A stretch of 64,000 nucleotides of DNA, taken from Escherichia coli. GTDB lineage: Bacteria; Pseudomonadota; Gammaproteobacteria; Enterobacterales; Enterobacteriaceae. The stretch is from NCBI RefSeq assembly GCF_030013205.1, contig NZ_CP122648.1. One strand, written 5' to 3'. Positions within the stretch are counted from its first letter, which is position 1. Every line of letters begins with the position of its first letter. Of this stretch, positions 7,301-13,300 are shown one piece after another. The position numbers were made by a program.

Positions 7301-10300
7301 GCGTCCGGGGTGTAAATCTGGCATCCCTACTACGCGCTGCATGTTGGGTAAATTTGCCGTGGTGTGTAATTGTTGGATCGCTAAACTCTCGATCCACAGG
7401 TCATCAGATGCGATGGTAAATACCGCATAGGATAAGGGACGAATATATTTGCCCATGTACCATTCCATTTATACTCGTCATACTTCAAGTTGCATGTACT
7501 GCGGCTGCGTTCGTTCACCCCAGTCACTTACTTATGTAAGCTTCTGGGGATTCACTCGCTTGTCGCCTTCCTGCAACTCGAATTATTTAGAGTATATAAA
7601 TATTAAAAATCAGGAAATGGCAGACGAATCCAGGGCAAGAAAAAAAGAATTAATCCTGGAAAGGTCTGCAAAGAGTCATTGATAAAGGATTTGTCATGAT
7701 TTACCTCCTTGCAGTTTGTGGAATAAGAAAACGCGCACATATTAGAAGGGCGTTATTTTCATTGCAAGCTGGATTTAATGTTGCGGTTTATAACGCATAT
7801 AAAAATTAATAAACCACGCTCCCCGGCATTCAACGCGCTGCTGCTTAACTGTCTGAAAACCATAACGTTCAAAAAAGGGTTTTGCGGTTATGCTGGCGTC
7901 CACCGTAAGTTCGGATTCAGACTTAATCAAAGGTTTTAACAAAGCGCTGGCAACCCCACGGCGGGTGTATTCAGGGTCAACAAATAACATATCGATATAA
8001 TGTTCAATGCGGGAAATAAAACCAACCGGTTGTGCATTAATGATCGCAACCCACACTTGTGATTTCGCGAGTTTCTCCTTCCAGCGAGATTCGTCAATCT
8101 GCGCCCAGGCGGCAATTTGTTGTGGTGAATAATGCTGACTGGCGGTCATCGTAACCGCTCTAATGAAAATAGCGCATAGTTGCTGAAAATCGCCAGGCTG
8201 ATAATCTCTTATTTGTATGTTATTCATAATATAAATTCAAAAACGCATGCGAAACGCTTCTGCCATTTTTCCAATTTTATGCATTTGGTTGTTATCTCGA
8301 GCCAGTTTATGAGGTTCAGGCTTCAGAATGGCAATGAGCAACCATGCTTGCTCATCAAACGCACCCTGACAATATACCAAATGCGCTTCGTCATTCGTTC
8401 TGCTGAATTGGCGCAACTGTGGCGGAAATGGATTATTCACATTTGCCAGATGAATATGAGCAACTCGCTCAAATTTGATTAATGGCCAGGTAAACGAGTC
8501 GTCGTAGAGTGCATCGCGACCAAATATATCTGGCAAAATACCGTCACGCTTATAGGAAATAAAATCCGCCGTTAACGCATCAAGTTCCTCTGCTGTAAGT
8601 TGCAGGCGAATAAGTTTTGTTTTGAATACCCGCATCCTTATTCCTTAAAGTCATTGAAATCATCATCCGTCATATCATTAAGATATTGTTCAGCGCGGCG
8701 TGTAATTTCCTCTAATCTTGCGGCACTCGGACGGAAGCGCGCCTTCACCAGTTTTTTCTCCTCTTGTTCTGCAAGCATGTCCATTAACGCTTCGAATGCG
8801 CTGGCACTTAAGAGATATCCTGCGGGGCGATTATTAGAAAGAACCGCAACCGGTTGATCAATAAAGTATTTTGCTGGATTTTTACGTAACTCAGTGATAT
8901 TGACCGATTTTTCAGCGAGAATTCGATGCATACAGTGATACCCTCATAATAATGCACACCAGAATATACATAATAGTATACATCATAATCCCAGCACCAG
9001 TTGTCTTTCCATTTGCGGGTCAAGCAACGTCACATGCAGCCCCACCAGCCGCACACCGCGCCCGCCGCGACGTTCATCCCAGGTTTTACGCGCGGTGGCA
9101 ATTAAGTCAGCTTTATTCAGCCGCGGCCAGACGTGCTCCTGAGTGGTTTGCTGAAAATCGTCGAACTTTAATTTCACCCCCTGGCGAGCAATCAGTAAAT
9201 CAGGTTTCACCTTTGCCAGACGGCGTTCAAGTTCCGGATACAGCCGCTCGATAATCGCTTCACATTCAGACCAGTGATGAATATCTTCCGCCATCGTGCG
9301 TTCCACGCCGACGGATTTTCGTAACCGTTCGCTGTTAACGTCGCGCTCGTCAATCCCCTGACTACGCTCCCACAAAATGCGGCCAAATTTGCCAAAACGT
9401 TTGAGCAGAGTCACCAGATCACACTTTTGCACATCACCGCAGGTCCGCAGCCCCATCGCTTCCAGTATTGCCGCCGAGACTTTGCCGACGCCGGGAATTT
9501 TTGCCAGCGGTAAGGTTTGCAGAAATGCCGGAACTTCTGCCGGCGTAATCACAAACTGGCCGTTGGGTTTATTCATGTCGGAGGCGATTTTAGCGAGAAA
9601 CTTTACTGGTGCCACGCCCGCAGACGCCGTCAGTTGCAGCTCGTTGAAGATTGTCTGGCGGATTTCCTGGGCGATGAGGGTCGCAGAACCGTGGCAATGG
9701 ACGCTATCAGTGACATCGAGATAGGCTTCATCCAGTGACAACGGTTCAATACGCGAGGTGTAGCGCGAGAAGATTTCACGGATATGATTTGAGGCTTCTT
9801 TGTAGGCGTCAAAGCGCCCCGGAAGCAAGGTGAGATGTGGGCATAATTTGAGCGCCATCCCAGTAGGCATAGCGCTACGTACGCCAAATTTACGCGCGGG
9901 ATAATTGGCGGTGCTGATCACCCCCCGACGTTCGCGGCTGCCGCCAATAGCAATAGGGATATCGCGCAGGGCGGGATTGTCGCGCATCTCCACTGCGGCG
10001 AAAAAGCAGTCCATATCCACATGAATGATTTTACGCATTGCTCACCTCTCAACACTGGTAAAGTATACAGTGATTTCAGGGTTTGAGAAATGCGTAAAGA
10101 TTCAGCATCTAGCGCGTTCGCTGCGAAAGCACCTGCTGCTTATCCAGCTTTTGCACCAGCGGCTGCACCACTTTATCCCCATGCTGACCAAAGTATTGAT
10201 ACAGCGTATCGGACGCACTTTTGGTCAGCACCATAATCTCAATGCGTCGGTTGCCCGCGCTTTGCGGATTTTTCGCGTCCAGCAGCATCTGGTCCGCCAT

Positions 10301-13300
10301 CGCGCTTACCTGCATCACTTTATCTTCCGGCATTCCGGCCTCTTCCAGCACCCGACGGGCCGAAAGCGCGCGATCGCCCGAAAGGTTCCAGTTGTTGTAG
10401 ATATTGTTTTTGTAGGCCATCGCATCGGTATGCCCGGTAATAATAATTTTGTTATCGAGCGAGTCGAACACTGGCGCGAGCTCCACCAGCAAAGTTTTAA
10501 AGAACGGCATAATCTGCGCGCTGCCGCGTTCAAACATATTGCGGTTCTGGTCATCTTTAATCAGCACGCGTAATCCCTGCGGGACAATCTCCATCTCCAG
10601 ATTCGCTTCCATATGTGCATCACGGGCAATGGTGTTGATACTGGTTGCCAACTCGCCAAGCTCGGTGGCGGATTTCTTCTTCAGCAGCGCCGGTTTCTCA
10701 TTCACATCACGCGCTTTTTTCTCCGTCTCTTCCGGCACCGCCACGGTGGCAGGTTTTGGCGGATGAGACGGGCTGATTTTATTTAACGGCGACAGCCCAC
10801 CACCGTTAAAAATCGACTGCCCGTGCAGCGCGGCGATAATGCTTTCACGCTCGGATTTACTGACGCTGTTGACAATCAACTTTATTGTCGTCACCAAAGG
10901 GGCCGAGCGTATTTCCGAGGTTTCTGCCCGCTTTACCCTGGACGCGATGCCTGGCAAACAGATGGCGATTGACGCCGATCTTAACGCCGGGTTGATCAAC
11001 CAGGCGCAGGCGCAAACCCGGCGTAAAGATGTTGCCAGCGAGGCCGATTTCTACGGCGCGATGGACGGGGCATCGAAGTTTGTGCGCGGGGATGCCATCG
11101 CCGGGATGATGATTCTGGCGATCAACCTGATCGGCGGCGTCTGTATCGGGATCTTCAAATACAACCTGAGCGCCGATGCCGCCTTCCAGCAATATGTGCT
11201 GATGACCATCGGCGACGGCCTGGTGGCGCAGATCCCTTCCCTGCTGCTCTCCACCGCGGCGGCGATTATCGTCACCCGCGTCAGCGACAACGGCGATATC
11301 GCCCATGACGTGCGCCACCAGCTGCTGGCAAGCCCGTCGGTGCTCTACACCGCTACCGGAATTATGTTTGTGCTGGCGGTGGTGCCGGGGATGCCGCATC
11401 TGCCGTTTTTGCTGTTCAGCGCCCTGCTTGGTTTTACCGGCTGGCGGATGAGCAAACGCCCGCAGGCGGCGGAGGCGGAAGAGAAAAGCCTCGAAACACT
11501 GACCCGCACTATCACTGAAACCCGCGAGCAACAGGTCAGTTGGGAAACCATTCCGCTGATCGAGCCTATCAGCTTAAGCCTTGGCTACAAGCTGGTGGCA
11601 CTGGTGGATAAAGCGCAGGGGAACCCGCTCACCCAGCGGATTCGCGGCGTGCGGCAGGTGATATCCGACGGTAACGGCGTACTGCTGCCGGAGATCCGTA
11701 TTCGGGAAAACTTCCGTCTCAAGCCCAGCCAGTACGCCATTTTCATCAACGGCATAAAGGCTGATGAAGCGGATATTCCGGTGGATAAACTGATGGCGCT
11801 GCCCTCCAGCGAAACCTACGGCGAGATTGACGGCGTGCTGGGGAACGACCCGGCGTACGGGATGCCCGTGACCTGGATTCAGCCTGCGCAGAAAGCGAAG
11901 GCGCTGAATATGGGGTATCAGGTGATCGACAGCGCCAGCGTGATTGCTACCCATGTGAACAAGATTGTGCGCAGCTATATTCCTGATTTGTTTAACTATG
12001 ATGATATTACTCAGCTGCATAACCGTTTATCGTCGATGGCTCCACGGCTGGCGGAAGATTTGAGCGCGGCGCTGAATTACAGCCAGCTGCTGAAAGTGTA
12101 CCGCGCGCTGCTGACCGAAGGCGTTTCCCTGCGCGATATCGTCACTATCGCCACCGTGCTGGTTGCCAGTAGCGCGGTGACCAAAGATCATATTCTGCTG
12201 GCGGCAGATGTGCGCCTGGCGCTGCGGCGCAGCATTACCCATCCGTTCGTTCGCAAGCAGGAGCTGACGGTGTATACGCTGAATAATGAGCTGGAAAATC
12301 TGCTGACCAACGTGGTGAATCAGGCGCAACAGGCCGGCAAAGTGATGCTCGATAGCGTGCCGGTGGACCCGAATATGCTCAACCAGTTCCAGAGCACGAT
12401 GCCGCAGGTGAAGGAGCAGATGAAAGCGGCGGGGAAAGACCCTGTGCTGCTGGTGCCGCCGCAGTTGCGTCCTTTGCTGGCGCGTTATGCAAGGTTGTTT
12501 GCGCCGGGGCTGCATGTGCTGTCGTATAACGAAGTGCCGGACGAGCTGGAGTTGAAGATTATGGGGGCGTTGAGTTGATTGAGGAATCTTTTCCATGCTT
12601 TGCAGCACCTGACACCATTAATTGACGTCACACTGCAAAGAGACTACGATGACACCATACAATGATGTCATGGATTGATAGTATGATTAAGGTCAGCGCG
12701 CTAGGCTCTCGTCATAGAAAAACATTCGACGATGTAATGACGGAGCCGCCAAAATCTGGAATTAAATGGGATGATGTTGTTGCACTCATTAAAGCTGTGG
12801 GTGGAACAATAAAAAATAACAACGGCTCCAGACGAAAATTTCAGATTGGAACGACCAAATTCAGCACACATGAGCCACATCCAAAGAATGTGATGGATAA
12901 AGGCGCAGTAGCAGGTCTTAAGGAGTGGTTTGTTAACTGTGTAGGGGTAGATTATGAATAAAGCATCGAACATTATCACAATTAAAGGTCAACCAGCCGC
13001 AGTGACATTTGAAGCCGATATCAACGCATTTCGCGGCAAGTTCCTCAATGTAAACGGTTATTGTGACTTTGTAGCCACAAGTATTGAGGCATTATATCGT
13101 GAAGGCGAAAGCGCGCTGGATGAGTGGATGGCGGATTGTGAAGAGGACGGTATTGCCCCTTTTCGTGAAGAAGAAGAGCAAAAACGCCTGACGCTTCGTG
13201 TTCCTCATCACATTGATTCGCGGCTGACCATCGTCGCCAGACAACATTCCATTTCAAAAAACCAGCTCATTGTTGATGTCTTAGAACGTGAGTTTTCAGC

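What the first reader, a model, noticed from the sequence alone, without database searches (positions are those of the whole stretch)
10109..12578. Flag-2 deletion scar: divergent, mutually overlapping lafU and lfhA remnants
The MotB-like lafU remnant (minus strand) and the FlhA-like lfhA remnant (plus strand) are both 5'-truncated and their longest ORFs overlap around 10839-10999. This is what a single deletion removing the intervening lateral-flagellar cluster would leave, matching the K-12 state as I recall it. Both ORF N-termini are therefore probably artefactual read-through.
Basis: partly seen in the sequence, partly recalled or inferred. Interest (0 to 1): 0.3.

Follow-up and report, generated by a model that had tools for sequence, protein, structure and literature searches.

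The report
Known Flag-2 flagellar deletion scar
This is the well-documented scar left in most E. coli when a ~35-kb second (lateral) flagellar gene cluster was deleted, leaving two dead end-fragments (lafU and lfhA) fused head-to-head; it is ordinary and already described.

Summary
The window is E. coli, 100% identical here to the pig strain K_EC180.

**What is there**
- Window 10109-10877 (-) is the 3' 769 nt of lafU, the MotB-like stator gene. It keeps codons 53-307.
- Window 10875-12578 (+) is the 3' 1704 nt of lfhA, the FlhA-like gene. It keeps codons 131-697.
- Against an intact Flag-2 locus (strain 571), the two fragments are collinear up to a shared ATC at 10875-10877. This sits inside an imperfect 15-bp direct repeat (11/15 matches).
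- 35,027 bp are missing between them.

**The ORFs**
- The ORF overlap at 10839-10999 is pure read-through. It adds 12 artefactual codons to lfhA and 41 to lafU.

**How common it is**
- The same junction occurs in K-12 MG1655 (pseudogenes b0229/b0230), in 4058 of 5426 complete E. coli genomes, and in the E. albertii type strain.

**Extra finding**
- Across diverse strains the remnants carry no stops or indels, and dN/dS is about 0.03. Scar alleles are interleaved with intact alleles.
- Within this window's own clone, recent mutations are 6 nonsynonymous to 1 synonymous, which is the neutral pattern.
- So the remnants are true pseudogenes. Their clean look most likely comes from recombination with intact alleles, which is inferred rather than shown.

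Nothing here is new. Interest is low.

The parts
10109..10877 (-). lafU remnant (MotB-like lateral-flagellar stator gene): codons 53-307 plus stop. It retains the periplasmic OmpA-like peptidoglycan-binding domain. It lacks the N-terminal cytoplasmic segment, the transmembrane helix with the conserved Asp (D39 of intact LafU) and most of the plug.
   Evidence: Collinear with intact lafU of strain 571 (L002 10928-11696) at 97.2% identity. Pfam finds OmpA only, against MotB_plug plus OmpA in the intact protein.
10875..10877 (.). Deletion junction: an ATC shared by both parental sequences (3-bp microhomology). The breakpoint lies somewhere within these 3 bases.
   Evidence: Three-way alignment. 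The window matches the lafU side through 10877 and the lfhA side from 10875. The junction bases are identical in 8 of 8 sampled scar alleles, and the 10850-10900 junction 51-mer is found in 4058 of 5426 genomes.
10866..10880 (.). Hybrid copy of the imperfect 15-bp direct repeat that flanks the deletion. Window: CTGTTGACAATCAAC. lafU parent: CTGTTGACAATCCAC. lfhA parent: CTGATGATCATCAAC. The parents match at 11 of 15 positions.
   Evidence: The binomial probability of 11 or more matches in 15 is 1.2e-4 before correcting for post hoc choice of the window. PMC6993521, citing Ren et al. [quoted passage not shown]
10875..12578 (+). lfhA remnant (FlhA-like export-gate gene): codons 131-697 plus stop. 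It lacks roughly the first four transmembrane helices; the cut falls in the fourth hydrophobic segment.
   Evidence: Collinear with intact lfhA of strain 571 (L002 46721-48424) at 95.0% identity. Pfam FHIPEP covers model positions 99-656 only. PGAP marks it as a pseudogene, 'missing N-terminus'.
10839..10874 (+). Artefactual 12-codon N-terminal extension of the lfhA ORF (MLSRSDLLTLLT). It reads the antisense strand of the lafU remnant.
   Evidence: This stretch is collinear with lafU, not with lfhA.
10877..10999 (-). Artefactual 41-codon N-terminal extension of the lafU ORF (TTG at 10999), reading the antisense strand of lfhA. PGAP instead starts its 261-aa 'LafU' CDS at the GTG at 10894, which is also inside lfhA-derived DNA.

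Best explanation
This is the Flag-2 deletion scar, known in K-12 as fhiA/mbhA and now named lfhA/lafU.

**How the scar arose.** In an ancestor carrying the full lateral-flagellar cluster (dinB-lafU-lafT ... lfhB-lfhA), about 35 kb was lost. The loss was an illegitimate, microhomology-mediated deletion between two imperfect 15-bp direct repeats that share an exact ATC. One repeat lies in codon 52/53 of lafU and the other at codon 130/131 of lfhA. This mechanism is inferred from the junction anatomy.

**Why the ORFs overlap.** Both genes are transcribed outward, so the deletion removed both 5' ends and all promoters and partner genes. The two 3' fragments were left fused head-to-head. No stop codon happens to lie close to the junction on either strand, so each fragment's reading frame runs on into the antisense of the other. 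That produces the overlapping 296-aa and 579-aa ORFs. This is shown.

**Why the fragments are dead.** LafU has lost its membrane anchor, proton-channel Asp and plug. LfhA has lost about four transmembrane helices. Every partner protein is gone. Loss of function is inferred from domain content.

**Evidence of neutral evolution.** Within this window's clonal lineage the remnants accumulate mutations at the neutral ratio, 6 nonsynonymous to 1 synonymous. In E. albertii the lfhA remnant carries a 22-bp frameshift. Both are shown.

**How one junction came to be so widespread.** The identical junction sits on very different flanking haplotypes in about 75% of E. coli and in E. albertii. The best explanation is one old deletion allele that has been moved among lineages by homologous recombination. 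Flanking remnant sequence would be repeatedly exchanged with the roughly 25% of strains that keep an intact, selected Flag-2. This part is inferred.
For: - **Junction mapping:**
- **Content of the intact locus:**
- **Domain loss:**
- **Same junction elsewhere:** K-12 MG1655, annotated as pseudogenes b0229/b0230; 4058 of 5426 complete E. coli genomes; the E. albertii type strain.
[quoted passage not shown] PMC3032704 says fhiA/mbhA are the terminal remnants in K-12 and B. PMC5369007 reports fragments of about 1700 bp and 769 bp, matching my 1704 and 769 nt. PMC11420993 reports the same truncated pair in E. albertii, EDL933 and MG1655.
- **Neutral decay:** within-clone mutations are 6 nonsynonymous to 1 synonymous. 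This differs from older private variants, 21 to 126 (Fisher p = 1e-4). E. albertii has a 22-bp frameshift.
- **Single origin:** the microhomology is unremarkable. The intact locus holds 791 exact 11-mer direct-repeat pairs more than 1 kb apart, and 445 lafU x lfhA 15-mer pairs with 11 or more matches. Repeated use of this one pair would not be expected.
- **Gene flow between forms:** ST131 subclade B2 is reported to have gained Flag-2. The scar allele of KK05-19 is identical to the intact allele of SW070910 on both sides of the junction.
Against: Nothing contradicts the identification of the scar. The single-origin-plus-recombination history is weaker, for these reasons:

- Eight diverse scar alleles show no stop or indel in 822 codons, and their dN/dS (0.027 for lfhA, 0.034 for lafU) is the same as for intact alleles.
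- There is only a weak dip in diversity around the junction.
- A T/C polymorphism 9 bp from the junction is shared by scar and intact alleles.
- In E. albertii, sites that differ from every sampled E. coli allele begin 21 bp left of the junction.

These facts require either very short or locally invisible recombination tracts, or an old polymorphism shared across species.

The sample is also small: 8 scar alleles, and 3-4 distinct intact alleles per side. I could not read the primary paper (Ren et al. 2005).
Confidence: 0.93

Rival explanations
1. Recurrent hot-spot deletion: the same 35-kb deletion has arisen independently many times at this exact pair of sites. Possible drivers would be a site-directed or structure-directed process, in different E. 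coli lineages and in E. albertii. This contrasts with one deletion spreading by recombination.
For: - The scar allele of KK05-19 differs from the intact allele of SW070910 by 0 of 1178 bp to the left of the junction and 1 of 2005 bp to the right.
- The K-12-type lafU remnant is identical to an intact lafU.
- Scar alleles are interleaved with intact alleles, and their deep divergence shows no relaxed constraint.
- The E. albertii scar has sites that differ from every sampled E. coli allele starting 21 bp from the junction.
Against: - The junction microhomology is only 3 exact bases within an 11/15 repeat.
- Hundreds of better direct-repeat pairs exist in the locus. No alternative junction turned up among the 8 scar alleles read in full, and the window's junction 51-mer is in 4058 genomes.
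- No recombinase site, inverted repeat or mobile-element end lies at the junction.
- Gain of Flag-2 by a scar lineage is reported in ST131, so recombination between the two forms does happen.
- Mosaic haplotypes can hide recombination tracts.
Confidence: 0.05
2. The remnants are not dead. One or both truncated proteins, for example the LfhA cytoplasmic domain or the LafU OmpA-like domain, are expressed and kept by purifying selection.
For: - Both ORFs are unbroken in 8 of 8 diverse E. coli scar alleles, with dN/dS of 0.027-0.034.
- PGAP calls LafU a normal CDS.
- A weak promoter-like site lies at 10813-10840 (+).
Against: - Mutations that certainly postdate the deletion, those within the porcine ETEC/O139:H1 clone, are 6 nonsynonymous to 1 synonymous. 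That is the neutral ratio.
- The E. albertii lfhA remnant is frameshifted by a 22-bp deletion.
- The LafU remnant has no signal peptide or transmembrane segment to reach the periplasm, and the LfhA remnant starts in the middle of a helix.
- All partner genes are gone.
- Promoter-like sites are not enriched: 6 found against 2.3 +/- 1.8 expected.
- mbhA appears alongside 'pseudogene' in several E. coli metabolic-engineering papers in the search list. I did not open them. My own recollection is that the locus is used as a neutral integration site.
Confidence: 0.02

Closest known systems
E. coli K-12 MG1655 lfhA (fhiA, b0229) / lafU (mbhA, b0230) pseudogene pair
   Same: Same two fragments, same orientation, same position next to dinB, and an identical junction sequence. 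Fragment lengths also agree; K-12 annotates 1713 nt and 756 nt, abutting at the window equivalent of 10865.
   Different: About 96% nucleotide identity only. Nearly all of the difference is synonymous. Downstream of lfhA this strain carries a hicAB toxin-antitoxin pair where K-12 has rayT. It also lacks dinJ-yafQ between yafL and dpaA.
Intact Flag-2 lateral-flagellar locus (E. coli 042 type; here strain 571, NZ_CP183117.1)
   Same: The lafU and lfhA 3' parts are orthologous and collinear, at 97.2% and 95.0% identity. The flanking genes dinB and hicAB/yafL are the same.
   Different: The window lacks 35,027 bp. That stretch covers the 5' 155 nt of lafU, the genes from lafT to lfhB (about 40 genes), and the 5' 390 nt of lfhA.
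Flag-2-negative Escherichia albertii scar (type strain NBRC 107761; also described in PMC11420993)
   Same: Identical junction sequence, TGACGCTGTTGACAATCAACTTTAT.
   Different: About 90% identity. The lfhA remnant has a 22-bp frameshifting deletion, and the lafU 3' end is altered by a REP-like insertion. Decay is therefore visible there, whereas the window's remnants are still open.

Membership tests
Flag-2 deletion scar (lfhA'-'lafU) of Escherichia | A 3' fragment of lafU immediately upstream of dinB, on the same strand as dinB | tested here: met
   lafU remnant at 10109-10877 (-), dinB at 8983-10038 (-).
Flag-2 deletion scar (lfhA'-'lafU) of Escherichia | A 3' fragment of lfhA fused head-to-head to the lafU fragment, with no Flag-2 genes between them | tested here: met
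   The fragments meet at 10875-10877; 35,027 bp of the intact locus are absent.
Flag-2 deletion scar (lfhA'-'lafU) of Escherichia | Junction identical to that of K-12 and other E. coli | tested here: met
   Alignment with a K-12-type allele and the MG1655 annotation. The 51-bp junction query is found in 4058 of 5426 genomes.
FlhA / FHIPEP export-gate proteins (functional member) | Complete N-terminal membrane domain: the full FHIPEP model from position 1, with about 8 transmembrane helices | tested here: not met
   Pfam FHIPEP matches model positions 99-656 only. 130 codons are missing relative to the 697-aa orthologue.
MotB / LafU stator proteins (functional member) | N-terminal transmembrane helix with the conserved Asp, plus the plug (Pfam MotB_plug), ahead of the OmpA-like domain | tested here: not met
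   MotB_plug is present in intact LafU (residues 19-70) and absent from the remnant. Residues 1-52, including D39, are deleted.
Expressed, selected truncated gene (as opposed to a pseudogene) | Purifying selection on mutations that arose after the truncation | tested here: not met
   Within-clone changes are 6 nonsynonymous to 1 synonymous, a small sample. E. albertii has a frameshift.

The most novel reading that the evidence does not exclude
The identical lfhA/lafU junction might not come from one ancient accident. It sits on unrelated flanking haplotypes in about 75% of E. coli and in E. albertii, and the remnants show no long-term decay. This could reflect a recurrent deletion directed by a site or by DNA structure, a reproducible 'off switch' that excises the costly Flag-2 cluster. 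A less radical alternative is a single deletion allele maintained alongside the intact cluster as a long-lived polymorphism shared across species and constantly reshuffled by recombination.
Probability: 0.06. Interest if true: 0.5.

Novelty: already known. Interest (0 to 1): 0.1.

Why it matters
It matters little beyond correct annotation. The region should be annotated as two pseudogene fragments. PGAP's 261-aa 'LafU' CDS and the 579-aa and 296-aa ORFs all have artefactual N-termini.

The scar is a useful presence/absence marker for Flag-2. It is also a clean example of a microhomology-mediated deletion.

The one point of wider interest is evolutionary. A dead gene fragment can look as if it is under strong purifying selection (dN/dS about 0.03, no stops) because its sequence keeps being drawn from a pool that includes intact, selected alleles. 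This is a caution against using dN/dS or ORF integrity alone to call pseudogenes in recombining species.

Tried and rejected
1. **Primary paper.** Ren et al. 2005 (PMC545627) is not held. I relied on secondary descriptions.
2. **Other genera.** It returned only four close relatives: two Citrobacter with intact lfhBA, the E. albertii scar, and an Aeromonas. I could not test whether the Citrobacter scars reported by PMC6993521 use the same junction.
3. **Remnants kept by purifying selection.** I considered this because dN/dS is 0.03 and the ORFs are unbroken. I rejected it on the within-clone ratio of 6 nonsynonymous to 1 synonymous and the E. albertii frameshift.
4. **Shared haplotype near the junction.** Diversity among scars dips only weakly at 10809-10908 (0.014, against about 0.03 in neighbouring windows). 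That is inconclusive with 8 alleles.
5. **Promoter and terminator scan of 9900-12800.** 6 promoter-like sites against 2.3 +/- 1.8 expected, and 4 terminator-like sites against 3.2 +/- 1.9. Nothing convincing.
6. **Rfam scan of the whole window.** No RNA family in 10109-12578.
7. **Chance or assembly artefact.** Rejected: the junction is identical in thousands of independent complete genomes.
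Full report
**1. Observation**

One runs 10109..10999 on the minus strand (296 aa, TTG start). The other runs 10839..12578 on the plus strand (579 aa, ATG start). They overlap by 161 bp, at 10839-10999.

Pfam finds only an OmpA-like domain in the minus-strand ORF. In the plus-strand ORF it finds a FHIPEP (FlhA family) match that begins at model position 99 of 657.

The window is E. coli. Positions 10000-12700 are 100% identical to strain K_EC180, a pig isolate. Neighbouring genes are dinB-yafNOP on one side and hicAB-yafL-dpaA on the other.

**2. Mapping the breakpoint against an intact locus**

About a quarter of complete E. coli genomes match the query as two separate places rather than one. 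I fetched one of them, strain 571 (NZ_CP183117.1, locus L002). It carries a complete Flag-2 cluster between dinB and hicAB. The cluster contains lafU (307 aa), motA/lafT, the sigma factor, lafA flagellin, the flg-like rod, hook and ring genes, the fliE-J-like genes, fliMNPQR-like genes, flhB-like lfhB, and lfhA (697 aa).

BLAST and a three-way alignment give these results:
- Window 9900-10877 is collinear with the lafU side (L002 10719-11696), at 97.2% identity.
- Window 10866/10875-12800 is collinear with the lfhA side (L002 46712/46721-48646), at 95.0% identity.
- The only bases shared exactly by both parents at the crossover are ATC (10875-10877).
- That ATC lies inside an imperfect 15-bp direct repeat. 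The lafU parent reads CTGTTGACAATCCAC and the lfhA parent reads CTGATGATCATCAAC, an 11/15 match.
- The sequence missing relative to strain 571 is 35,027 bp.

For the genes this means:
- lafU loses its first 155 nt. That covers residues 1-52, including the hydrophobic helix and D39; in my own reading D39 corresponds to the MotB proton-channel Asp.
- lfhA loses exactly 390 nt, which is residues 1-130. The cut falls in the fourth hydrophobic segment.
- Pfam on the intact proteins confirms what was lost. MotB_plug (residues 19-70) is gone from LafU, and FHIPEP model positions 1-98 are gone from LfhA.

**3. The ORF overlap**

Only 255 of the 296 codons of the lafU ORF are real. The first 41 (10877-10999) read the antisense strand of lfhA.

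Only 567 of the 579 codons of the lfhA ORF are real. The first 12 (10839-10874) read the antisense strand of lafU.

PGAP annotates the lfhA part as a pseudogene ('missing N-terminus'). It calls a 261-aa 'LafU' CDS starting at the GTG at 10894, which is also inside lfhA-derived DNA. The real fragments share only the 3-bp microhomology.

**4. Comparison with what is known**

K-12 MG1655 annotates lfhA (b0229, 248358-250070) and lafU (b0230, 250072-250827) as abutting pseudogenes next to dinB. A K-12-type allele has the identical junction.

A 51-bp query spanning the junction (10850-10900) is present in 4058 of 5426 complete E. coli genomes.

The literature describes this scar directly:
- De Maayer et al. 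2020 (PMC6993521) summarise Ren et al. 2005. They report a deletion within the lfhA and lafU reading frames and direct repeats at its ends. All 76 of the 100 E. coli strains they analysed that lack flag-2 carry the truncated pair.
- Archer et al. 2011 (PMC3032704) state that in K-12 and B only the terminal remnants fhiA and mbhA are left.
- PMC5369007 reports fragments of about 1700 bp and 769 bp in an ST131 strain. My mapping gives 1704 and 769 nt.
- PMC11420993 reports the same truncated pair in E. albertii, EDL933 and MG1655.

**5. An evolutionary oddity, followed up**

I compared 8 scar alleles: the window, O104:H4, O157:H7, a K-12 type, and four others. I compared them with intact alleles (5 lfhA sequences, 3 of them distinct; 4 lafU sequences).

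*Deep divergence looks constrained.*
- All scars have the same junction and no stop or indel in 567 + 255 codons.
- Synonymous divergence is high and nonsynonymous divergence is low. For lfhA, scar versus scar gives dS 0.218 and dN 0.0060 (ratio 0.027). Intact versus intact gives a ratio of 0.030. For lafU the ratios are 0.034 and 0.038.
- Scar alleles are interleaved with intact alleles. KK05-19 (scar) differs from SW070910 (intact) at 0 of 1178 bp to the left of the junction and 1 of 2005 bp to the right.
- Variants private to a single scar allele are also mostly synonymous: 21 nonsynonymous to 126 synonymous.

*Three explanations were considered:* purifying selection on the remnants, recurrent identical deletions, or one deletion allele shuffled by recombination with intact alleles.

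*Tests:*
- **(a) Within the window's clone.** The window's allele belongs to a porcine ETEC/O139:H1 clone. There are 18 records at 99.8% identity or above, and the next best is 97.4%. Among six members of that clone I found 7 distinct mutations, which must postdate the deletion. Six are nonsynonymous and one is synonymous. That is the neutral ratio, and it differs from the older variants (Fisher p = 1e-4).
- **(b) E. albertii.** The type strain has the identical junction. Its lfhA remnant carries a 22-bp frameshifting deletion, and its lafU 3' end is disrupted by a REP-like insertion.
- **(c) The repeat.** The junction repeat is unremarkable. The intact locus holds 791 exact 11-mer direct-repeat pairs more than 1 kb apart. 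There are 445 lafU x lfhA 15-mer pairs with 11 or more matches. Repeated use of this particular pair is not expected.
- **(d) Gain of Flag-2.** A recent ST131 subclade is reported to have gained Flag-2. Exchange between the two forms therefore does occur.

*Conclusion.* The remnants are genuine pseudogenes. Their apparently constrained deep divergence is inherited from alleles that were, or still are, part of intact clusters under selection. One old deletion allele moving by homologous recombination is the most economical history. With 8 alleles I cannot exclude a recurrent hot spot. The weak dip in diversity near the junction is inconclusive.

**6. Mechanism: what is shown and what is inferred**

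*Shown:*
- the position of the junction;
- the microhomology;
- what was lost from each gene;
- the read-through origin of the ORF N-termini;
- the population frequency of the junction;
- neutral accumulation of recent mutations.

*Inferred:*
- the deletion arose by slipped or illegitimate recombination at the imperfect repeat;
- it happened once;
- recombination explains its spread and the undecayed look of the remnants;
- the fragments have no function, since they have no promoter, membrane anchor or partner genes.

**7. Verdict**

This is a confirmed, correctly interpreted and already published feature. Interest is low. The only mildly instructive point is that ORF integrity and low dN/dS do not prove function in a recombining species.

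Noticed in passing
window 12662-13310: A hicA/hicB toxin-antitoxin pair (Pfam HicA_toxin, HicB) sits directly downstream of the lfhA remnant, where K-12 MG1655 and O157:H7 have rayT (a REP-associated transposase). Both arrangements occur with both scar and intact Flag-2, so this spot next to the scar is itself variable.
   Followed up: partly
window 14126-14416: The dinJ-yafQ toxin-antitoxin pair lies between yafL and dpaA/yafK in strain 571; MG1655 also carries dinJ just beyond yafL at the edge of the stretch fetched. It is absent here: yafL is followed directly by dpaA.
   Followed up: no
window 10053-10072 (-): CACTGTATACTTTACCAGTG lies between the lafU stop and the dinB start. It looks like the dinB LexA (SOS) box. 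This is my reading of the sequence plus prior knowledge. The deletion left this 70-bp lafU-dinB spacer untouched.
   Followed up: no
window ~34887-37725 (from K_EC180 annotation, locus L100 minus 109): A second apparent internal deletion scar, in a type VI secretion cluster. tssH 'missing C-terminus' is fused to a VasL-domain gene 'missing N-terminus'. In the same cluster tagH has an internal stop (~30977-32257). Upstream lie an Rhs fragment (~22477-24666) and a dead ISAs1 transposase (~20743-21879).
   Followed up: no
lfhA and lafU alleles across E. coli (L002-L018): Synonymous diversity at this locus within E. coli is very high (lfhA dS about 0.22). That is nearly as large as E. coli versus E. 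albertii at the same gene (dS 0.25-0.29). This suggests deep allelic lineages or exchange between species at Flag-2.
   Followed up: partly
L022 (E. albertii NBRC 107761), around 2200-2330 and 3900-3920: A REP-like palindromic insertion (GCCGGATGCGCAGCGCTTATCCGG...) replaces the last codons of the lafU remnant, and a 22-bp deletion frameshifts the lfhA remnant.
   Followed up: yes
E. coli genome search results: 13-17 copies of the scar lie on records typed as plasmids. These may be F-prime factors carrying the dinB-proAB-lac region, but that is a guess. Separately, a record labelled 'DH5alpha' (NZ_CM135829.1, 4.83 Mb) matches the query as two separate places, with a hicA gene downstream of its flhA-annotated gene, unlike K-12. 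The label may be wrong.
   Followed up: no
window 40978-41570: An IS200C transposase gene with the Rfam STnc490 RNA (41447-41570) next to tRNA-Asp. An rRNA operon lies at 49995-55097. These are ordinary features.
   Followed up: no
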